Positions 40,587-47,128 are shown, counted from the first letter of the stretch. The stretch: DNA of 64,000 nt from an uncultured bacterium (GCA_903937035.1 CAIZXS010000020.1:3443-67442); one strand, 5' to 3'. The notes: generated by a model from the sequence alone, not told the origin. Translations and numbers: made by a program.

Positions 40587-40916
40587 TTAATTGAAATGAA
40601 AAATTTTCTTCTCAAAATCCACAATCTTACCGTCTCTTACTTTTACCCCATCTCTCCTCAAAAGTCCAGCCTTGACTTTTGAGCCACTTACAAACCCACC
40701 AATTTTTCCATCAGTTTTCACCACCCTGTGACATGGAACAACTGGCGCATAAGGATTGCAATTAAGCGCATTGCCAACAGCGCGCGACGCACCAGGTCTT
40801 CCAATTGCCTTCGCAATCTGACCATAGGTCACTACACGACCACGCGGAATAAGACTAGTTTTCTCATAAACTAAATCAGCGAAAGAATTTGAGGTATTTT
40901 GGGTAAAATATTTCAT
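40587..40916 (-). CDS. ogt: methylated-DNA--protein-cysteine methyltransferase (DNA-binding domain only)
   Basis: VPCHRVV active-site motif. Confidence 0.85.
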   Translation of the reverse strand: MKYFTQNTSNSFADLVYEKTSLIPRGRVVTYGQIAKAIGRPGASRAVGNALNCNPYAPVVPCHRVVKTDGKIGGFVSGSKVKAGLLRRDGVKVRDGKIVDFEKKIFHFN

Positions 40917-40985
40917 TCGGTCCTTAATCGCAAAATATCCAAAAAAACACTTTACTCACTGAAGTAAAAACACCAACTTTCCTGC

Positions 40986-41300
40986 TCACTGATTAATGAA
41001 ACGTAAAGCATATGAAATGAGTAGTATAGCAGCTATCCCAAAGGAAATCCAGCACCAAAGCAAAGCTCTCTTGGAATATTTTATTGCTTCCTCAAAATTA
41101 CCTTCTTTGATCTTATTATTTACTTGAAGAGAACTTATCAAAGCAACTAACCCAGTGGGTAGAAAAAAAAGAATCATTGCCACAATGGACGCCTTCGTGT
41201 ATGAAGGAATATTTGGAACATTTAATTTTACTCCGCAGTGAGCGCAATTTATTTCATATTTTTTTGTTTCTTGGCCACAGCCCTGACAGAATGTTTTCAT
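40986..41300 (-). CDS. zinc-ribbon membrane protein
   Basis: N-terminal CxxC...CxxC (CQGCGQ...CAHCG) followed by two TM helices. Confidence 0.5.
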   Translation of the reverse strand: MKTFCQGCGQETKKYEINCAHCGVKLNVPNIPSYTKASIVAMILFFLPTGLVALISSLQVNNKIKEGNFEEAIKYSKRALLWCWISFGIAAILLISYALRFINQ

Positions 41301-41304
41301 AAGT

Positions 41305-41664
41305 TTAATACATTATTCTTCCCTTTACTAAAAGTAAATATACCAAAGCGGCCGTTCCTATGGAGCCAGCAATTAAGCCAAAAATTATCCTGCCCTTTCC
41401 AAGTTTTCCCGGGTTTTTCTGAAACTGTACCCAGGCAATAATAGAAACAACTAACGCAATTGGCGCAAGCGGAGGAACAAGCGCGCAAAGTCCCAAATAT
41501 CCCGACACAATGGAAAGACCAGTTCTCCCTATCGGCACAACCGAACTGAGATTGACTGATTCATTTTTGTCTATCAATTGACTAGGAGTCTTCAAGTTCA
41601 ACTCACATTTAACACAAAACTCCGCGTTATCATCATTCTGCGCACCACAATTTGGACAAAACAT
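41305..41664 (-). CDS. zinc-ribbon DUF4190-like membrane protein
   Basis: MFCPNCGAQ...CVKCE zinc ribbon, then GLSIVSGYLGLCAL...GKGRIIFGLIAGSIG, typical of DUF4190. Confidence 0.55.
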   Translation of the reverse strand: MFCPNCGAQNDDNAEFCVKCELNLKTPSQLIDKNESVNLSSVVPIGRTGLSIVSGYLGLCALVPPLAPIALVVSIIAWVQFQKNPGKLGKGRIIFGLIAGSIGTAALVYLLLVKGRIMY

Positions 41665-41694
41665 ATTTTTTATTTTTATTTTATTATTAGAAAA

Positions 41695-42249
41695 CTACTT
41701 AATTTTATTACAACGCGAAGATAATTTTCCACTATCAATAATTTGATTCAATTCTTTTTCCAGTTCTCCAAATTCACTGCGACTACCGCAATCATAAATT
41801 TCCAAAAAAGGATCACTATCCACTAGCATGCCAAATAGTTTTTCGGGAGACGGCAATTCCTTCAAGGCCGCGTATTCTTCCATAGTAAGCTTTAAAAAGC
41901 CACTATTGACACTTACATTTCCGAAAAGGTAACCCTTGTTCAGCTTTTTCGGGTAATTATTTGGCAACATATCCGTCATATTAGGATATGAAACGATCGA
42001 TTTCTTGTCTTGGGAAACGCCAACAGGAACCAACTTAGCATAATCTGCTTTTGTTTTATAGATAATAGTTGGGGGTCCTGCTACTGGAGTGACGTCCGAT
42101 TTTTTCATCTCCGTTCCTTTTTCATTCTTCTTACCACTCTCACCGCCCAAAAAACCAGCCCTTCGCAGCAAAACAAAAACGCCGACCGCAACAACCAGTA
42201 ATAGTACAATTCTAATAATATTTTTCCTAGTAGCCATATCTGTTTCCAT
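41695..42249 (-). CDS. membrane-anchored hypothetical protein
   Basis: Single N-terminal TM segment IIRIVLLLVVAVGVFVLL; no recognisable domain. Confidence 0.45.
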   Translation of the reverse strand: METDMATRKNIIRIVLLLVVAVGVFVLLRRAGFLGGESGKKNEKGTEMKKSDVTPVAGPPTIIYKTKADYAKLVPVGVSQDKKSIVSYPNMTDMLPNNYPKKLNKGYLFGNVSVNSGFLKLTMEEYAALKELPSPEKLFGMLVDSDPFLEIYDCGSRSEFGELEKELNQIIDSGKLSSRCNKIK

Positions 42250-42280: not shown

Positions 42281-43186
42281 TTAAAGCCCACACAAACTCG
42301 CAATCCTCGCGAACTCATCATTAACTATTTTTTGAATCTTACCTAGAATCAATTTATTCTTAGGAAGAAATAAATGCTTAAAGCGTCCTTGGGTTTTCAA
42401 GAATTCCGTCACCGGCTTTATTGTTTTCGGTTCCCAGCTTAGCTTATATTTACCATTTTCAATTTCATAGAGTGGCCAAAAATTGGTTTCCGTCGCCAGT
42501 TTGGCAATCGCCACATATTGCGAAGTGGGAAATTTCCAATTATTCGTGCAAGGTGAAAAAACCGTGAGAAAACTCGGGCCATCCACTGCTAAGGCTTTTT
42601 TGGCTTTCATTTTGAGGTCAGCCAAATTTGCAATATTAGCTTGCGCGGCATAAGGAATGTTGTGCGCTGCCACGATTCCCATGAGATTTTTCCGCATTTC
42701 CACCTTACCAAAAGACTCATCTCCAACCGGTGTCGTTTCTGTCCCAGCGCCATAGGGAGTCGCTGATGATCTTTGATTACCAGTATTCATGTAACCACCA
42801 TTGTCATAGACAACATAGAGAAAATTATGTCCGCGTTCGAGTGCACCAGAGAGTGCTTGGAGCCCAATATCATAGGTTCCACCATCTCCACCAAAAGCAA
42901 CGAATTTGATTTTCTTCTTAATCTTGCCTTTTTTTCGCATTGCCAAATACGCCCTTTCTACACCAGAAATAGTCGCCGCCGCGTTTTCAAAAGCACTGTG
43001 GATATATGGCACGTTCCATGCGGTGTAGGGATAGATGGTCGAAGTCACTTCAAGACAACCCGTCGCATTGGAAATCACCACTGGCGTGGTCGCTTCGCCC
43101 AAAATCGTTCGCACAATTGAGGGAAAAGCGCATCCTGCGCAAGCACTGTGACCGGGAGCTAAATTTTTTGCTAAGTCTTTGTTCAT
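42281..43186 (-). CDS. porB: pyruvate/2-oxoacid:ferredoxin oxidoreductase beta subunit (TPP-binding)
   Basis: TPP motif GGDGGTYDIGLQAL...YDNGGYMNTGNQ. Confidence 0.85.
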   Translation of the reverse strand: MNKDLAKNLAPGHSACAGCAFPSIVRTILGEATTPVVISNATGCLEVTSTIYPYTAWNVPYIHSAFENAAATISGVERAYLAMRKKGKIKKKIKFVAFGGDGGTYDIGLQALSGALERGHNFLYVVYDNGGYMNTGNQRSSATPYGAGTETTPVGDESFGKVEMRKNLMGIVAAHNIPYAAQANIANLADLKMKAKKALAVDGPSFLTVFSPCTNNWKFPTSQYVAIAKLATETNFWPLYEIENGKYKLSWEPKTIKPVTEFLKTQGRFKHLFLPKNKLILGKIQKIVNDEFARIASLCGL

Positions 43187-43203
43187 GAATTTATCAATTT
43201 AAA

Positions 43204-43890
43204 TCATTTACCCATAAGTTCATCTTTAATTTTTGGAAAATACATCCTCCATGAGAAAGCAAAATCAGCAAATGTATTTACCGCTGCAACAAATAGAAAA
43301 ACACTCAGCCCGACAAGATATGTCAAATTCAAAAAATACACAATAATTAAGATTAAGGCACAAATCGAATTATTCAAAGCCCACCGCAGAGAACTTGCCA
43401 TTTCCAATCTATTGCGATTAACTGAATTTGTTTTAAAATATACAAAATATAACCAGGCTGAATTAATACAGAGTATGATAATGAGAATCTGATAAAAATA
43501 AACAAAATTCGTGATAGCAGAGGCGAGCATATAGAAAAATATGGAATGGATAACCAGGGAAATAAAATCTATAAATCTCGAGGCAGGACTATAATCTTCA
43601 ACATGGGAAGCACCGCGTTTAAATTCTAAATATTTCAAATCAAGATACCGCAAATCACCCAAAAAAAATCGAATAAAAAAAAGTAAAAAAACCACAAAAA
43701 GCAGATTGGTCTCTATGCTCAATTCTTGCCACGGCCGTATATCCCAAATTCCGGTCTTGGCATTAGTGTGCATGATCATATTTTGCAGAGCCACAATCAA
43801 AGGAGCGCTCATAATAACCGTATAAATGATTTTATAGTTCGATTCCAATCTCTCGAGGCTCTTTTTTGATTTTTCTGTAATCTGCCGCAT
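43204..43890 (-). CDS. polytopic membrane protein of unknown function inserted between porA and porB
   Basis: Six to seven predicted TM helices; no recognisable motif. Confidence 0.5.
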   Translation of the reverse strand: MRQITEKSKKSLERLESNYKIIYTVIMSAPLIVALQNMIMHTNAKTGIWDIRPWQELSIETNLLFVVFLLFFIRFFLGDLRYLDLKYLEFKRGASHVEDYSPASRFIDFISLVIHSIFFYMLASAITNFVYFYQILIIILCINSAWLYFVYFKTNSVNRNRLEMASSLRWALNNSICALILIIVYFLNLTYLVGLSVFLFVAAVNTFADFAFSWRMYFPKIKDELMGK

Positions 43891-43897
43891 ACGCTTT

Positions 43898-45040
43898 TTA
43901 ACTTAAATATTTTTCCCGAAATCTACCCTCCAAAATCTGCTCAATCTGTTTTTTGAACACATCTCGTCCGCCCAAGCCATAAACGATGCTGGAAACTTTT
44001 GTATTACTCGCATTTTGCAGACTGACCATAATTTCCGAATACAGTGGTGGATGCGAACCGATTGATTGCGCGCGATCCATCACAATTATTTCTTTGGCGT
44101 TTTTTAGCGCAATAGCAATTTCTGAAAATAGAAACGGGCGAAACAGTTCAATTTTCAAAAGTCCTACTTTTTGGTCTTTCTTTCGCAGGACGTCAATTGC
44201 ATCTTTAGCTGTGCCTGCAACCGATCCAATCAGCACTAAAACTTTTTCTGCACCCTCTAAATCATATTCTTCAAACAAAGCATATTTTCTGCCACTAATT
44301 TCAGCATACTCTTTTGCAATTTTCTTATATTCTTCAGCTACCGTTGCCATCGCCACTTCTTGATCAATTTTGAATTCAAAATAGGATTCTTGCAGTGCAA
44401 CTGGACCGTACGTCACCGGATTTTCAATATCGAGCAGTGATTTTTCTGGAGCATATTCTCCGACAAACTTTTTGACAATTTTAGCGTCCAAGATTTCCAA
44501 ATTCTCCACACTGTGCGAAGTGTTAAATCCATCCATAATCACCATCACCGGCAGTCCGACGCGTTCCGCTAGTTTCATGCCAATGATTGTTTTATCATAA
44601 ACCTCTTGCGGGTTTTCACAAAAAATTTGCACCCAACCAGCGTCGCGAGAGCCCATTACATCGCTATGATCACCGTGGATGCTCAGAGGCGCAGAAAGCG
44701 CACGAGCTGCCACAACCATCAAAATTGGCAAGCGCATACCAGAAGCTATATAGAGCATTTCGTGCATATAGGCAAGCCCCTGTGAGCTTGTGGCTGTTGC
44801 TGTGCGTGCTCCCGCGGCTGAGGCACCAATCGCCGCACTCATTGCGCTATGTTCCGATTCCACTTCAATCATTTCAGTTTCTACTTCTCCATCAGCCACA
44901 AATTTAGCATAAGTCTCAATAATTGGCGTCTGTGGTGTGATTGGATAGATCGGCATCACATCCGGTTCGATTTGTTTTAAGGCATACGCCGCAGCATAAC
45001 CACCGGTCAGCGCCAATTTTTTTTTATCTTTTATTAACAT
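43898..45040 (-). CDS. porA: pyruvate/2-oxoacid:ferredoxin oxidoreductase alpha subunit
   Basis: PFOR domain I (GGYAAAYALKQIEPDVMPIYPITPQT) and domain VI-like C-terminus. Confidence 0.85.
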   Translation of the reverse strand: MLIKDKKKLALTGGYAAAYALKQIEPDVMPIYPITPQTPIIETYAKFVADGEVETEMIEVESEHSAMSAAIGASAAGARTATATSSQGLAYMHEMLYIASGMRLPILMVVAARALSAPLSIHGDHSDVMGSRDAGWVQIFCENPQEVYDKTIIGMKLAERVGLPVMVIMDGFNTSHSVENLEILDAKIVKKFVGEYAPEKSLLDIENPVTYGPVALQESYFEFKIDQEVAMATVAEEYKKIAKEYAEISGRKYALFEEYDLEGAEKVLVLIGSVAGTAKDAIDVLRKKDQKVGLLKIELFRPFLFSEIAIALKNAKEIIVMDRAQSIGSHPPLYSEIMVSLQNASNTKVSSIVYGLGGRDVFKKQIEQILEGRFREKYLS

Positions 45041-45043
45041 AAG

Positions 45044-45304
45044 TTAATTCTTCTTCATAATTATAGCCCGAACCGGACAAATTTGCGCACAAACTCCACA
45101 ACCCTTGCAAAATTCATAGTCAATATCCGCCTTATCCCGCTTATCGTTTTTATGCTTTTTCATTTCAATGCATGCATCTGGACAAAACGGCACACAAGTC
45201 GCACAGCCAATGCACTTGTCCTTATCCACTTCCGGCTTCATATACCGCCAAGAACCAGTCCGGGGAGATTTTTTGATATCATGTTTGATGATTGCGCCTT
45301 TTTC
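45044..45304 (-). CDS. porD: PFOR delta subunit (2x[4Fe-4S] ferredoxin)
   Basis: CIGCATCVPFCP and CKGCGVCAQICP cluster motifs. ATG at 45304 (MEKGAII) preferred, which removes the overlap with the upstream channel gene. Confidence 0.85.
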   Translation of the reverse strand, partial: EKGAIIKHDIKKSPRTGSWRYMKPEVDKDKCIGCATCVPFCPDACIEMKKHKNDKRDKADIDYEFCKGCGVCAQICPVRAIIMKKN

Positions 45305-45314
45305 CATTATATTT

Positions 45315-46349
45315 TTATTCCATTTTAGTATTATCGCCAAACCATTTTACATATAATTCGTCATACTTTCCAGATTCTCGCAATTCCAATAATACTCTAT
45401 TTATGGCTTCTCGTAAAACAGTTGCGCCCTCTTTAGTTACAATCCCATAGACATGCGGATTAAAGACATCGCCCACAATTTCAAATTCCTTCATGCCAGC
45501 ATTTCTGACGAAATAGAGAAGCGATGGTGCATCAAAAACTACCGCGTCCACCAGGCCTGCTTTTAATTTCTCATAGGCTTTTTCAATACGCTTAACCGGC
45601 ACAATCTTAGCATTCAATTTTCTCAAAACCTCAACACTGATTGTTTTTTCTACTGTTGCTACGTTTTTTCCTGCCAAATCCTTATGCCCGCTAATATTGC
45701 CTTGCAATTTTGACATTGTGATAAGGGAACTAGTTTCAGCGATAAAAAAGCCAAAAATAATGTACCCGCCAAGAATCACCACTGTACTGAAAATTCTACC
45801 GATCCAAGATTGAGGAACAAAATCTCCATAACCAACCGTACTCATTGTCACAATAGCCCACCAAAATGACTCAAAAATTCCCGGAAAATAATGACTATTA
45901 AACGTTCCCGCATTCTTCTCCGCAAGCCAAATAATATTTCCAAATACTCCAATAAAAAGAGCAATGCCAAGGATAGCTTCCAATATTTTTTTATACCCAT
46001 TCTTAATCAGATTTCTAATCGTAATAAAAATATTAATATTTTTATCGCTAGAAACTAACACTAAGAGCCCTGACTCAAGCGTATTGTGGGAAAAATCAAT
46101 AATCTCTTCTCGCTCTTTATTGATGGTTATTCCAGCTAGTGCCAAATCCGCTTTTCCATCACAAACACTTTCAAGTATACTGGAAAACCCTACTTTTTTA
46201 TATTGAAAATCCAACTTTAGCCTTCGTGCAATCATGCCCCAAAGCTCGATTTCAAAACCAGAAAAATTCTTCCCTTTTTTCATCACTAAAGGTGGAATCT
46301 CGCTTACAGCAACGGTTAAAACTGCTTTCTTAGTAACACTATTTTTCAT
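45315..46349 (-). CDS. GluR0-like ligand-gated potassium channel (substrate-binding domain split by a K+ channel pore)
   Basis: SBP type-3 lobe 1 (FSGFEIELW...DLALAGITINKEREEIIDFS), M1 helix, pore TMSTVGYGDFVP with the K+ selectivity filter TVGYGD, M2 helix, then SBP lobe 2 (VDAVVFDAPSLLY). Confidence 0.8.
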   Translation of the reverse strand: MKNSVTKKAVLTVAVSEIPPLVMKKGKNFSGFEIELWGMIARRLKLDFQYKKVGFSSILESVCDGKADLALAGITINKEREEIIDFSHNTLESGLLVLVSSDKNINIFITIRNLIKNGYKKILEAILGIALFIGVFGNIIWLAEKNAGTFNSHYFPGIFESFWWAIVTMSTVGYGDFVPQSWIGRIFSTVVILGGYIIFGFFIAETSSLITMSKLQGNISGHKDLAGKNVATVEKTISVEVLRKLNAKIVPVKRIEKAYEKLKAGLVDAVVFDAPSLLYFVRNAGMKEFEIVGDVFNPHVYGIVTKEGATVLREAINRVLLELRESGKYDELYVKWFGDNTKME

Positions 46350-46383
46350 TAATTTTTGTTTTTATTTCCCACTTATCCATCCG

Positions 46384-46953
46384 CTAAATCGCGTCATAAG
46401 CCCTTTCAATCGCTAAAATATTTTTTTCGCAATTCTCTTTGCCGATTTTTTCTTCGAAAATTTTACGGAATTCTTCTAAAATACTCTTCAACTTAACAAC
46501 TTCCGTCACTTTGATAATTTTACCAAGAATTACCGTGTTTGGTCTTGGTTGACCAACGATGGCCATGGAAATTCCATTAGCATCCACGGCGTGAATTTTT
46601 CCGTCGAAACGAATCAAATCTCGAATTTCATGTGGGCTTTTGGCAGAATTGATAATCAGCGCCTCATTTCTATCCAACCCTTCAGTTACTTTCTGACTAG
46701 AAAGCAAAGTATCATCCAAAACTACCACCACATCCGGATCAACAACTGGCTCTTTGGTGCGAATAGCCTTATCGGAAATGCGCAAGTAGGTCTTAGTCGG
46801 CGCACCGCTTCTTTCCGGCCCAAAATTGGGAAAAGTTTGCACAAAATTTCCCTCGAGCACTGCCGCCTGCGCAATAATTTCTGCCGCGGTTTTTGCCCCT
46901 TGCCCACCCCGCGCAAAAAAGATGATTTCCATTGTGTCTTTGTGGTATTTCAT
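46384..46953 (-). CDS. porG: PFOR gamma subunit
   Basis: IIFFARGGQGAKTAAEIIAQAA motif. The start may be the internal MEIIFF. Confidence 0.8.
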   Translation of the reverse strand: MKYHKDTMEIIFFARGGQGAKTAAEIIAQAAVLEGNFVQTFPNFGPERSGAPTKTYLRISDKAIRTKEPVVDPDVVVVLDDTLLSSQKVTEGLDRNEALIINSAKSPHEIRDLIRFDGKIHAVDANGISMAIVGQPRPNTVILGKIIKVTEVVKLKSILEEFRKIFEEKIGKENCEKNILAIERAYDAI

Positions 46954-46988
46954 ATGGATAGTATAGCATAAATTTATTTATTATTGTA

Positions 46989-47019
46989 GAGACGAGCCCG
47001 CCGGCTGGCGGGCTCGTCT
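46989..47019. other. perfect 12-13-bp GC-rich hairpin upstream of the por operon
   Basis: agacgagcccgcc-ggct-ggcgggctcgtct. A second hairpin agacgag-acaatgc-ctcgtttct at ~47060-47083 shares the same stem sequence. Confidence 0.5.
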
Positions 47020-47097
47020 TAGCGCTATTGACTTACCGCCCTAACATTGTATGTTTTTTAGACGAGACAATGCCTCGTTTCTACAATTATTGCCAAA

Positions 47098-47128
47098 CTA
47101 AAAAAAGACGCCCTGGCAGGACGTCTTC
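47098..47128 (-). terminator. intrinsic terminator downstream of the DsbA-like gene
   Basis: Minus strand aagacg-tcctgccaggg-cgtctt followed by ttttttt. Confidence 0.6.

What the first reader, a model, noticed from the sequence alone, without database searches (positions are those of the whole stretch)
42281..46953. Four-subunit PFOR operon interrupted by a GluR0-like ligand-gated K+ channel and a polytopic membrane protein
Minus-strand gene order is porG (46384..46953), a substrate-binding-protein/K+-channel fusion (45315..46349), porD, porA, a six-to-seven-TM protein (43204..43890), then porB. Intergenic gaps are 7-34 nt and the channel stop lies ~10 nt from the porD start, so the genes are probably co-transcribed. 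The channel has the complete iGluR-like S1-M1-P-M2-S2 topology with the K+ selectivity filter TVGYGD. Embedding an amino-acid-gated ion channel and an unknown membrane protein inside the central fermentative enzyme operon is unusual. It suggests coupling of ligand sensing or membrane potential to pyruvate oxidation.
Basis: partly seen in the sequence, partly recalled or inferred. Interest (0 to 1): 0.75.

Follow-up and report, generated by a model that had tools for sequence, protein, structure and literature searches.

The report
Accessory genes lodged inside a PFOR operon
A tiny-genome (CPR) bacterium has a potassium channel gene and an unknown membrane-protein gene wedged between the genes of a core metabolic enzyme, but sister strains lack one or both, so they are optional passengers rather than enzyme parts; the channel itself seems to face inward, the reverse of its known relatives.

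Summary
On the minus strand, porG, a GluR0-type channel, porD, porA, a 6-TM protein and porB follow one another with 3-34 nt gaps and no terminator between them.

The proposed functional coupling to pyruvate oxidation is not supported.
- Sister operons with Por proteins about 90% identical lack the channel. L100 is a clean porGDAB operon, and L102 lacks the channel but has the same TM gene.
- About 12 other CPR channel homologs have no por gene within 8 kb.
- TM homologs outside this strain group are never next to por genes.
- In this Moranbacteria-like clade all three por junctions are cargo slots. They hold about 25 unrelated families, including an IVS protein, a PD-(D/E)XK nuclease, a BrnT/CopG toxin-antitoxin pair, NUDIX and a radical-SAM cassette. 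Neighbouring non-por genes also come and go.

The channel is intact: canonical TVGYGD filter, Arg/Thr/Asp amino-acid-binding triad, dN/dS 0.05-0.11. Like about 110 relatives, nearly all CPR where the source is named, it has no signal peptide and a reversed positive-inside charge bias. This predicts a cytoplasmic ligand-binding domain and a KcsA-like pore orientation, the opposite of experimentally mapped GluR0.

Verdict: passenger genes that are probably co-transcribed with the operon, plus a probable new topological variant of GluR0.

The parts
46991..47128 (-). Upstream boundary: intrinsic terminator of the DsbA-like gene (47128..47104) plus two further GC-rich hairpins (the last at 47018..46991)
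   Evidence: Terminator scan. RNA fold -73 kcal/mol, z = -7.0 against shuffles.
46960..46968 (-). Candidate extended -10 promoter element TGcTATACT just upstream of porG (inferred, not shown)
   Evidence: Read from the sequence. The consensus scan did not list it. Its position implies a leaderless or very short leader, or a true porG start at Met8 (ATG 46932). NCBIfam alignments start at residue 8.
46384..46953 (-). porG (gamma subunit of a POR/VOR-family 2-oxoacid:ferredoxin oxidoreductase)
   Evidence: PF01558 1e-35. TIGR02175 189 bits, above its cutoff of 81.
45315..46349 (-). Accessory insert 1: amino-acid-binding-domain/K+ channel fusion (GluR0 type, no signal peptide), 344 aa. S1 46041-46319, M1 45918-45989, P-helix and filter 45822-45890 (TVGYGD 45822-45839), M2 45732-45806, S2 45330-45698.
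   Evidence: Pfam SBP_bac_3, Ion_trans_2 and Lig_chan. PDB phmmer: GlnH 1e-42, Nostoc GluR0-homologue LBD 1e-35. AF2 pLDDT 86. Foldseek: GlnH TM 0.94 at 1.4 A and AMPA-receptor LBD-TMD chains at E 1e-22. dN/dS 0.05-0.11.
45044..45307 (-). porD (delta subunit, two CxxCxxCxxxCP [4Fe-4S] motifs)
   Evidence: TIGR02179 91 bits, above its cutoff of 60. Fer4 families. Motifs read in the translation.
43898..45040 (-). porA (alpha subunit)
   Evidence: POR_N 3e-76 and PFOR_II 3e-25. PorA_Arch 454 bits, below its equivalog cutoff of 550.
43204..43890 (-). Accessory insert 2: orphan 6-TM membrane protein, 228 aa, in the hypervariable porA|porB slot
   Evidence: No Pfam, NCBIfam or PADLOC hit. 13 close clusters. 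Wider superfamily of 554 clusters. AF2 pLDDT 82. No solved-structure match. Present at this site only in the window strain and L102.
42281..43186 (-). porB (beta subunit; TPP motif GDG...NGGYMNTGNQ and cluster-binding cysteines)
   Evidence: TPP_enzyme_C 9e-20. PRK11865 352 bits, below its cutoff of 405. Motifs read in the translation.
40587..42249 (-). Possible continuation of the transcription unit: a 184-aa membrane-anchored protein, a 119-aa Zn-ribbon/DUF4190 protein, a 104-aa CD225 protein and a 109-aa MGMT-like protein. These are also variably present in relatives.
   Evidence: Gaps of 31, 30, 4 and 69 nt with no convincing terminator. Presence/absence map.

Best explanation
This is a four-subunit POR/VOR-family 2-oxoacid:ferredoxin oxidoreductase operon (most likely PFOR) of a Moranbacteria-like CPR bacterium. 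It has acquired two unrelated, independently inherited passenger genes at intercistronic junctions. In this clade the three por junctions (G|D, D|A, A|B) act as permissive cargo slots. New genes land directly after a stop codon, with no promoter or terminator of their own detected, and are probably expressed by read-through from the por promoter (inferred). Passenger 1 sits in the G|D slot. It is an intact amino-acid-gated K+ channel of the GluR0 architecture that has been kept under purifying selection in a patchy subset of strains. It has no signal peptide, and its positive charges lie on the ligand-binding-domain side of M1 and M2. Its GlnH-like clamshell is therefore predicted to sit in the cytoplasm with the pore in KcsA orientation. 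In that case binding of a cytoplasmic alpha-amino acid would open the bundle-crossing gate and let K+ flow (inferred). A plausible role is K+/amino-acid (osmolyte or charge) homeostasis, independent of PFOR. Passenger 2 sits in the A|B slot. It is a strain-specific 6-TM protein of an uncharacterised superfamily with conserved intramembrane polar residues. PFOR does not need either passenger.
For: Gene content and spacing. Dispensability: L100 has PorG/D/A/B 90-91% identical with junctions of 4, 0 and 7 nt. L102 (PorG 95%) has no channel but has the TM gene at 98% identity. L099, L101, L105, L107 and L149 also lack the channel. The channel occupies the G|D slot in 5 of about 45 evaluable operons with PorA at least 55% identical, plus L103, where the channel is present but porG lies off the contig. 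Lineage restriction: 12 CPR channel loci at 40-51% identity have no por gene within 8 kb and no shared neighbour. TM homologs lie among TrmB regulators, LAGLIDADG genes and unknown ORFs, never next to por genes. Cargo slots: 35 of 49 A|B junctions in the clade are 150 nt or longer and hold about 25 unrelated families. Relatives with PorA at 54% or below have tight junctions in 15 of 16 cases. Cargo includes the 23S-rRNA IVS protein (2e-35), PDDEXK_3 (5e-27), BrnT plus CopG antitoxin, NUDIX and a radical-SAM/SPASM gene. Flux is also seen in flanking non-por genes. Channel integrity: TVGYGD filter; R80 and D273 invariant and T75 near-invariant; dN/dS 0.05-0.11 with dS close to that of the por genes in L016; structure matches GlnH and AMPA-receptor LBD-TMD. 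Topology: no signal peptide, and the ORF cannot be extended upstream. K+R on the LBD-side linkers versus the pore-loop side is 6.6 vs 1.7 in 127 signal-peptide-less homologs and 2.5 vs 4.5 in 74 signal-peptide-bearing homologs (window: 6 vs 1). The contingency table is 110/17 against 2/72, with only 4 state changes on an NJ tree. PhoA mapping shows that signal-peptide-bearing Synechocystis GluR0 has its LBD outside and is opposite to KcsA (PMC13099474).
Against: Co-transcription is inferred from sequence only, and no expression data were available. The channel slot is conserved down to 74% channel identity while the flanks are reshuffled (L012). That conservation could reflect some benefit of por-linked expression. 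Whether channel-less strains carry the channel elsewhere in the genome is unknown, because most comparisons are metagenome contigs. The cytoplasmic-LBD topology rests on the positive-inside rule and on the absence of a signal peptide; there is no experimental topology and no dedicated topology predictor was run. No insertion mechanism was identified: no target duplication, repeats or mobility gene.
Confidence: 0.72

Rival explanations
1. Functional coupling. The channel, and perhaps the TM protein, are accessory or regulatory partners of PFOR, co-expressed so that amino-acid sensing or K+/membrane potential is tied to 2-oxoacid oxidation.
For: Tight co-directional packing without terminators. 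The channel slot is retained from 100% down to 74% identity while flanking genes change. Purifying selection acts on the channel. If the LBD is cytoplasmic, an intracellular amino-acid sensor next to an enzyme that consumes transamination products is at least conceivable.
Against: Operons with about 90% identical Por proteins lack the channel, the TM gene or both. The channel and TM gene occur independently of each other (L102, L016). All other CPR channel homologs sampled are unlinked to por genes. The same slots hold toxin-antitoxin, nuclease, IVS-protein and NUDIX genes in sister genomes.
Confidence: 0.1
2. The channel has the classical GluR0 orientation, with the LBD outside sensing external amino acids. 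It would be inserted without a cleavable signal peptide, with M1 acting as a reverse signal anchor or through a CPR-specific route.
For: Homology to GluR0 and GlnH, whose binding domains are extracytoplasmic. From my own knowledge, solute-binding domains of this family are typically exported.
Against: About 110 homologs, nearly all CPR where the source is named, consistently lack any N-terminal hydrophobic segment, and their K/R bias is reversed relative to signal-peptide-bearing relatives. Translocating a folded N-terminal domain of about 100 aa that is followed by 4 K/R residues goes against the positive-inside rule (established knowledge). Other exported proteins in this window (DsbA-like, the 184-aa protein) do have N-terminal hydrophobic anchors. 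From my own knowledge, PBP-type-II folds do work in the cytoplasm, for example in LysR effector domains.
Confidence: 0.3
3. The TM protein is a membrane anchor or electron-transfer partner recruited to PFOR.
For: Its position between porA and porB with 7 and 17 nt gaps. A real, conserved protein family.
Against: It is found at this site only in the window strain and L102. L016, L100 and most relatives lack it. Its homologs elsewhere are never por-linked. It has no cysteine or histidine cofactor motif typical of redox proteins. Remote homologs are fused to nucleoside-2-deoxyribosyltransferase-like domains, which points to a different biology.
Confidence: 0.03
4. Assembly artefact or chimeric contig.
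For: One related contig (L009) does switch abruptly to unrelated sequence inside porA.
Against: The identical arrangement appears on at least 8 contigs from independent samples and assemblers. Related arrangements appear in GTDB MAGs and JGI metagenomes.
Confidence: 0.01

Closest known systems
GluR0 (Synechocystis slr1257) and other prokaryotic iGluR-type K+ channels (Chen et al. 1999, cited within PMC2234077; Ger et al. 2010, PMC2950845; PMC13099474)
   Same: S1-M1-P-M2-S2 architecture. TVGYG K+ filter. GlnH-like clamshell with the Arg/Thr/Asp alpha-amino-acid triad. The predicted structure aligns to AMPA-receptor LBD-TMD chains.
   Different: No signal peptide and a reversed positive-inside bias, so the LBD is predicted cytoplasmic and the pore is not inverted. 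The LBD is closer in sequence to GlnH (1e-42) than to Synechocystis GluR0 (3e-13). Ger et al. noted 4 signal-peptide-less cases and listed opposite orientation as one of three untested possibilities.
KcsA, MthK, MloK1 and KirBac-type K+ channels with cytoplasmic gating domains
   Same: The predicted orientation has the N- and C-terminal domains in the cytoplasm and the P-loop entering from outside. A cytoplasmic ligand-binding module would control the inner bundle-crossing gate (inference).
   Different: The sensor is a split periplasmic-binding-protein fold inserted around the pore. It is not a C-terminal RCK, CNBD or Kir domain.
E. coli GlnH (glutamine-binding protein, PDB 1WDN, 8HNJ, 8EYZ)
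   Same: The best sequence and structure match of the S1S2 domain: TM 0.94, rmsd 1.4 A to the closed Gln-bound form. The main-chain-binding residues are conserved.
   Different: By alignment, the side-chain-specific residues differ: GlnH K115 corresponds to V233 and H156 to F272 (my mapping). The agonist need not be glutamine and was not determined.
Canonical porGDAB (porCDAB) operons of four-subunit POR/VOR enzymes
   Same: The same four subunits in the same order. Full-length matches. Cofactor motifs intact.
   Different: Interrupted at two junctions. Relatives with PorA at 54% identity or below have tight junctions at all three positions, with one exception at A|B (L173).
Promiscuous small genes that colonise intergenic sites (23S rRNA intervening-sequence protein PF05635, PD-(D/E)XK PF13366, BrnT/BrnA toxin-antitoxin pairs)
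   Same: These occupy the same por junctions in sister genomes. This shows that the junctions tolerate, and perhaps attract, foreign genes.
   Different: The window's own passengers are a channel and a polytopic membrane protein, not known selfish elements. No mobility signature was found.

Membership tests
GluR0-type prokaryotic glutamate-receptor K+ channel | Solute-binding domain split by a two-TM pore (S1-M1-P-M2-S2) | tested here: met
   SBP_bac_3 spans residues 11-338 around Ion_trans_2 at 157-210. The AF2 model aligns with AMPA-receptor LBD-TMD chains at E 1e-22.
GluR0-type prokaryotic glutamate-receptor K+ channel | K+ selectivity filter T-V-G-Y-G | tested here: met
   TVGYGD at residues 171-176. 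66 of 112 homologs with the LBD-side-positive charge bias keep a canonical filter.
GluR0-type prokaryotic glutamate-receptor K+ channel | Alpha-amino-acid binding residues (Arg for the carboxylate, Thr, and an acidic residue for the amine) | tested here: met
   R80 and D273 are invariant and T75 is near-invariant. They align to GlnH R75, D157 and T70.
GluR0-type prokaryotic glutamate-receptor K+ channel | N-terminal signal peptide, extracytoplasmic LBD and a pore inverted relative to KcsA | tested here: not met
   No hydrophobic N-terminus, and the ORF is already maximal. K+R is 6 on the LBD side versus 1 on the loop side. The class means are reversed in signal-peptide-bearing homologs. This is a prediction, not an experiment.
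GluR0-type prokaryotic glutamate-receptor K+ channel | Tetrameric, amino-acid-gated K+ conductance | not testable with these tools
   Needs electrophysiology or flux assays.
Four-subunit POR/VOR 2-oxoacid:ferredoxin oxidoreductase | Alpha, beta, gamma and delta subunits with their characteristic domains | tested here: met
   POR_N and PFOR_II, TPP_enzyme_C, POR and 2x Fer4. TIGR02175 and TIGR02179 score above their cutoffs.
Four-subunit POR/VOR 2-oxoacid:ferredoxin oxidoreductase | Cofactor motifs: the TPP GDG...N motif and cluster cysteines in beta, and two CxxCxxCxxxCP motifs in delta | tested here: met
   Read in the translations of 42281-43186 and 45044-45307.
Four-subunit POR/VOR 2-oxoacid:ferredoxin oxidoreductase | Pyruvate as the substrate (PFOR rather than VOR or another enzyme) | tested here: inconclusive
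   The best NCBIfam models are PorA, PorB, PorC and PorD, but all score below their equivalog cutoffs (454 vs 550, 352 vs 405, 171 vs 270, 84 vs 120).
Functionally coupled operon member (conserved gene neighbourhood) | Co-occurrence with the por genes across independent lineages | tested here: not met
   The channel is in the G|D slot in 5 of about 45 evaluable related operons, plus L103, and is absent from several of the closest ones. 12 other CPR channel loci are not por-linked. The TM gene is por-linked only in the window strain and L102.
Functionally coupled operon member (conserved gene neighbourhood) | Co-transcription with the por genes | not testable with these tools
   The sequence is compatible: gaps of 3-34 nt and no terminator. 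No transcript data were available.

The most novel reading that the evidence does not exclude
The window's channel represents a large, essentially monophyletic clade of GluR0-type channels, nearly all from CPR bacteria where the source is named, that sit in the membrane the other way round. The GlnH-like clamshell would be in the cytoplasm and the pore in KcsA orientation, making these intracellular amino-acid-gated K+ channels. One protein family would then exist in both orientations, differing by a signal peptide and a redistribution of K/R residues. That would offer a concrete route for how the inverted pore of glutamate receptors arose from an ordinary K+ channel.
Probability: 0.55. Interest if true: 0.7.

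Novelty: new variant of a known kind. Interest (0 to 1): 0.45.

Why it matters
Three points.

1. It is a caution. In compact CPR genomes, tight same-strand packing inside a well-known operon does not imply shared function. Here a central fermentative operon tolerates, and may express, a changing set of passenger genes, some of them selfish.

2. The channel points to an apparently undescribed clade of GluR0-type channels, nearly all from CPR bacteria, with a predicted cytoplasmic sensor. If confirmed, these would be the first inward-facing iGluR-type ligand-binding domains. They would bear on how the inverted glutamate-receptor pore evolved, and on how ultra-small fermentative bacteria link K+ flux to their amino-acid pool.

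3. The 6-TM passenger defines an uncharacterised membrane-protein superfamily with no match among solved structures (Foldseek against PDB).

Tried and rejected
- **Defence-system idea for the TM protein, the channel and the downstream 184-aa protein:** no PADLOC hit.
- **Fold assignment of the TM protein:** Foldseek against PDB found nothing better than E 0.3. The afdb50 library was unavailable.
- **Internal promoters and terminators:** the consensus scans were no richer than shuffled sequence, so they are uninformative.
- **Integron-like or transposon-like insertion:** no target-site duplication, flanking repeats or attC-sized spacers. The gaps of 7-34 nt are too short.
- **Recent foreign origin by composition:** the channel and TM genes have lower GC (0.37 and 0.34 against 0.42-0.44 for por genes). 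Their GC3 (0.32-0.35) overlaps that of flanking native genes (0.35-0.36), so this is not diagnostic.
- **Conserved neighbour for CPR channels that might hint at function:** none found.
- **Homology between the window's TM protein and cargo in sister operons:** none.
- **L009 as an alternative arrangement:** an abrupt junction inside porA and no annotation, so I treated it as a probable chimera.
- **Literature on CPR GluR0-like channels or por-operon inserts:** nothing in the searchable library.
Full report
**1. Observation**

The six minus-strand ORFs are present as described. Domain scans identify four of them as Por subunits:
- porG, 46384-46953: PF01558; TIGR02175 at 189 bits.
- porD, most likely ATG 45307 to 45044: TIGR02179; two CxxCxxCxxxCP motifs.
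- porA, 43898-45040: POR_N and PFOR_II.
- porB, 42281-43186: TPP_enzyme_C; PRK11865.

The subfamily models pass their cutoffs, but the pyruvate-specific equivalog models do not. The enzyme is therefore a POR/VOR-family 2-oxoacid:ferredoxin oxidoreductase, probably PFOR.

The ORF at 45315-46349 has a solute-binding domain (SBP_bac_3, residues 11-338) split by a K+ channel pore (Ion_trans_2, residues 157-210), plus Lig_chan. The filter TVGYGD lies at 45822-45839. The ORF at 43204-43890 has no hit in Pfam, NCBIfam or PADLOC.

The intercistronic gaps are 34, 7, 3, 7 and 17 nt. No terminator-like site lies between the genes. Upstream of porG sit a strong terminator and two more hairpins, with a fold z-score of -7. 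At least eight independent contigs show the same arrangement, so it is real.

Tight spacing is the norm for this genome. About half of all same-strand gaps in the window are 35 nt or less (counted).

**2. Organism**

The closest named relatives of the channel are Candidatus Moranbacteria / Moraniibacteriota and other Patescibacteria. GC is about 0.40, and most genes in the window are co-directional.

**3. Is the embedding conserved?**

I sampled relatives in two ways.

*Anchored on the channel.* A scan of one genome per GTDB species found 471 relatives, and the best 80 loci were kept. A tblastn of the window's Por proteins against these and the earlier loci found flanking por genes in only two of the 80, L015 (96% channel identity) and L016 (95%). 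The same holds for the earlier loci L010/L011 (89%) and L012 (74%). Twelve other CPR loci at 40-51% identity have no por gene within 8 kb. They also share no conserved neighbour.

*Anchored on PorA.* A metagenome scan returned 76 loci. The junction table shows:
- L100 has PorG/D/A/B 90-91% identical to the window, with junctions of 4, 0 and 7 nt. This is a clean porGDAB operon.
- L102 (PorG 95%) has no channel (an 11-nt G|D gap) but carries the same TM gene (98% identical) between porA and porB.
- L099, L101, L105, L107 and L149 (PorA 82-90%) also lack the channel.
- L016 has the channel but no TM gene.

The two inserts are therefore independent of each other, and at least at this location PFOR does not need them.

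**4. The junctions are cargo slots**

Among operons with PorA at least 55% identical, 35 of 49 evaluable A|B junctions are 150 nt or longer. They carry ORFs of 60-506 aa. Cargo at the three junctions falls into about 30 sequence clusters, or about 25 families once the channel and the D|A and G|D cargo are set aside. In relatives with PorA at 54% or below, 15 of 16 A|B junctions are tight, and all evaluable G|D and D|A junctions are tight.

Cargo found in sister genomes includes:
- A radical-SAM/SPASM gene with two small membrane proteins (L010).
- A 23S-rRNA intervening-sequence protein at D|A in L016, with tblastn matches at 66-73% identity to it at D|A in L139/L158, L140 and L143 (PF05635, 2e-35 for L016).
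- A PD-(D/E)XK nuclease at G|D (L107).
- A BrnT toxin plus CopG antitoxin pair.
- A NUDIX hydrolase.
- Many small signal-peptide or TM proteins, and E/K-rich proteins with no family.
- Non-coding hairpin fillers in some relatives.

The region also shows mosaic ancestry. L142 and L164 have PorB 99% identical to the window, but PorA at 77-83% and different cargo. In L016, porA has a dS of 1.06 against 0.38-0.49 for the other genes. This points to recombination around the junctions.

Flux is not confined to the por genes. The window's 119-aa and 104-aa genes (40986-41664) are absent from all five close relatives whose loci extend past porB into the conserved downstream genes. The 184-aa, MGMT-like and HAD genes are variably present.

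At the nucleotide level, the channel block (a 34-nt leader plus the ORF) sits immediately after the porG stop. The spacer after the channel stop (TAAaaatataATG) resembles the empty site (TAAaaatATG in L100). No target duplication is visible.

**5. The channel**

The channel is intact and constrained.
- dN/dS is 0.05-0.11 against L016, L010 and L012. Against L016, its dS matches that of the por genes.
- R80 and D273 are invariant and T75 is near-invariant. They align to the GlnH residues that bind the alpha-carboxylate and alpha-amino groups.
- The AF2 model has pLDDT 86. Its clamshell superposes on closed, Gln-bound GlnH (TM 0.94, 1.4 A). The whole chain aligns to AMPA-receptor LBD-TMD chains at E about 1e-22.

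The unexpected feature is topology.
- The ORF starts 10 residues before the binding fold and cannot be extended upstream.
- In a 201-sequence set, homologs without a signal peptide (n = 127, nearly all CPR where the source is named) carry 6.6 +/- 2.1 K+R in the pre-M1 and post-M2 linkers. They carry 1.7 +/- 1.2 in the M1-P and filter-M2 loops.
- Homologs with a signal peptide (n = 74, non-CPR) show the reverse: 2.5 against 4.5. The window's channel has 6 against 1.
- The contingency table is 110/17 against 2/72. Most of the 17 exceptions are borderline signal peptides or truncated N-termini.
- On an NJ tree only four state changes are needed, and one pure clade holds 94 sequences.

PhoA mapping has shown that signal-peptide-bearing Synechocystis GluR0 has its binding domain outside and is inverted relative to KcsA (PMC13099474). 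By the positive-inside rule, the CPR clade should be the mirror image, with a cytoplasmic binding domain and a KcsA-like pore. The clamshell attaches at the bundle-crossing end of M1 and M2 in either orientation, so the gating mechanism would be preserved and only the sensed compartment would change (inference).

Ger et al. 2010 noted four signal-peptide-less cases and listed opposite orientation among three untested possibilities. I found no paper on the CPR clade.

The agonist is undetermined. By alignment, two GlnH side-chain contacts are replaced by hydrophobic residues (K115 by V233, H156 by F272).

**6. The TM protein**

The model shows six long helices plus an N-terminal helix (AF2 pLDDT 82). 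The close family has 13 clusters with invariant polar motifs: RFFxGDLRxxDxKYL, H115, N143, W146, R161, E163, NN173-174, D209 and a C-terminal YFP. A profile search extends it to 554 clusters. F75, G78, Y87, W146, W170, N174, D209, Y217 and P219 are kept across 22 aligned members of the wider superfamily.

Several longer members carry a C-terminal domain of the nucleoside-2-deoxyribosyltransferase-like type (PF05014, DUF4406, DUF1937). No solved structure matches. Homologs elsewhere lie among TrmB regulators, LAGLIDADG genes and unknown ORFs, never next to por genes. Its function remains unknown, and a PFOR-related role is unlikely.

**7. Verdict**

The sequence observation is confirmed. The interpretation as functional coupling is not supported.

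The best explanation is a por operon in a lineage where intercistronic junctions, and the neighbourhood in general, accept passenger genes that are probably expressed by read-through. One passenger is a conserved but patchily distributed K+ channel, and the other is a strain-specific orphan membrane protein.

The most interesting by-product is the prediction that CPR GluR0-type channels face inward. That is a new variant of a known kind and needs experimental topology mapping.

Noticed in passing
window 43204-43890 (-); proteins P0172, P0190, P0191, P0212, P0213: The orphan 6-TM protein belongs to a 554-cluster uncharacterised superfamily with conserved intramembrane polar residues and no solved-structure match. 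Several longer members are fused to nucleoside-2-deoxyribosyltransferase-like domains (PF05014, DUF4406, DUF1937). This hints at a nucleoside- or nucleotide-linked membrane function.
   Followed up: partly
L016 9329-9706; D|A junctions of L139/L158, L140 and L143: A 23S-rRNA intervening-sequence protein gene (PF05635, 2e-35 in L016) sits between porD and porA in L016. tblastn matches at 66-73% identity to it lie at the same junction in four other por operons (L139/L158, L140, L143). It is absent from the window.
   Followed up: yes
L107 G|D; L119/L172 A|B; L110 D|A; L010/L104 A|B: Sister por operons carry other cargo at their junctions: a PD-(D/E)XK nuclease, a BrnT/CopG toxin-antitoxin pair, a NUDIX hydrolase and a radical-SAM/SPASM cassette with two small membrane proteins.
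   Followed up: yes
L099, L149 and L105 G|D junctions; L099 and L149 A|B junctions; L016 10907-10955: Non-coding fillers of 100-205 nt with long inverted repeats (MITE- or REP-like hairpins) occupy por junctions in some relatives. L016 has tandem 'attcgta' repeats at A|B.
   Followed up: no
L142, L164, L016: Mosaic ancestry. L142 and L164 have PorB 99% identical to the window, but PorA only 77-83% and different cargo. In L016, porA has dS 1.06 against 0.38-0.49 for its neighbours. This suggests recombination breakpoints around porA and the A|B slot.
   Followed up: partly
window 40986-41664 (-) and 41695-42249 (-): The 119-aa Zn-ribbon/DUF4190 and 104-aa CD225 genes downstream of porB are absent from all five close relatives whose loci extend past porB into the conserved downstream genes. 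The 184-aa membrane-anchored protein is variably present. So accessory-gene flux extends beyond the por operon.
   Followed up: partly
L044, L049-L051, L054, L055, L064, L065, L067, L068, L076, L078, L080, L081, L083, L088, L089, L091, L092, L094: Many cyanobacterial, Acidimicrobiia and deltaproteobacterial (Desulfobacterales and related) GluR0 homologs appear to be about 600-770 aa long when read as maximal ORFs, with an extra N-terminal region of about 270-440 aa ahead of the S1 domain.
   Followed up: no
Channel homologs P0011, P0023, P0029, P0041, P0094, P0106; L026, L029, L030, L041, L045: Whole CPR sub-clades of the channel family have degenerate filters (STDSFGDY, LGLDGALFVY, LGSPA.., GGVGG). 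Some non-CPR members have ATQADQ-type pores. K+ selectivity is therefore not universal in the family.
   Followed up: partly
window 46932-46968 (-): A TGcTATACT extended -10-like element ends 6 nt before the first ATG of porG. All NCBIfam alignments start at residue 8. The true porG start may therefore be Met8 (ATG 46932), or the mRNA may be leaderless.
   Followed up: no
L009 1-1530: A contig that carries the identical TM gene switches abruptly to unrelated sequence inside porA. The unrelated part includes a 475-aa ORF with no Pfam hit on the opposite strand. This is probably an assembly chimera, possibly a rearrangement.
   Followed up: partly
L013 1726-2286; L014 and L095-L097 flanks: TM-protein homologs in other CPR genomes lie in variable regions rich in TrmB-family regulators. 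These regions also hold a PycTM-domain gene (L013), LAGLIDADG-like genes, and often a gene of 188-221 aa directly upstream (weak bPH_3 hit).
   Followed up: no
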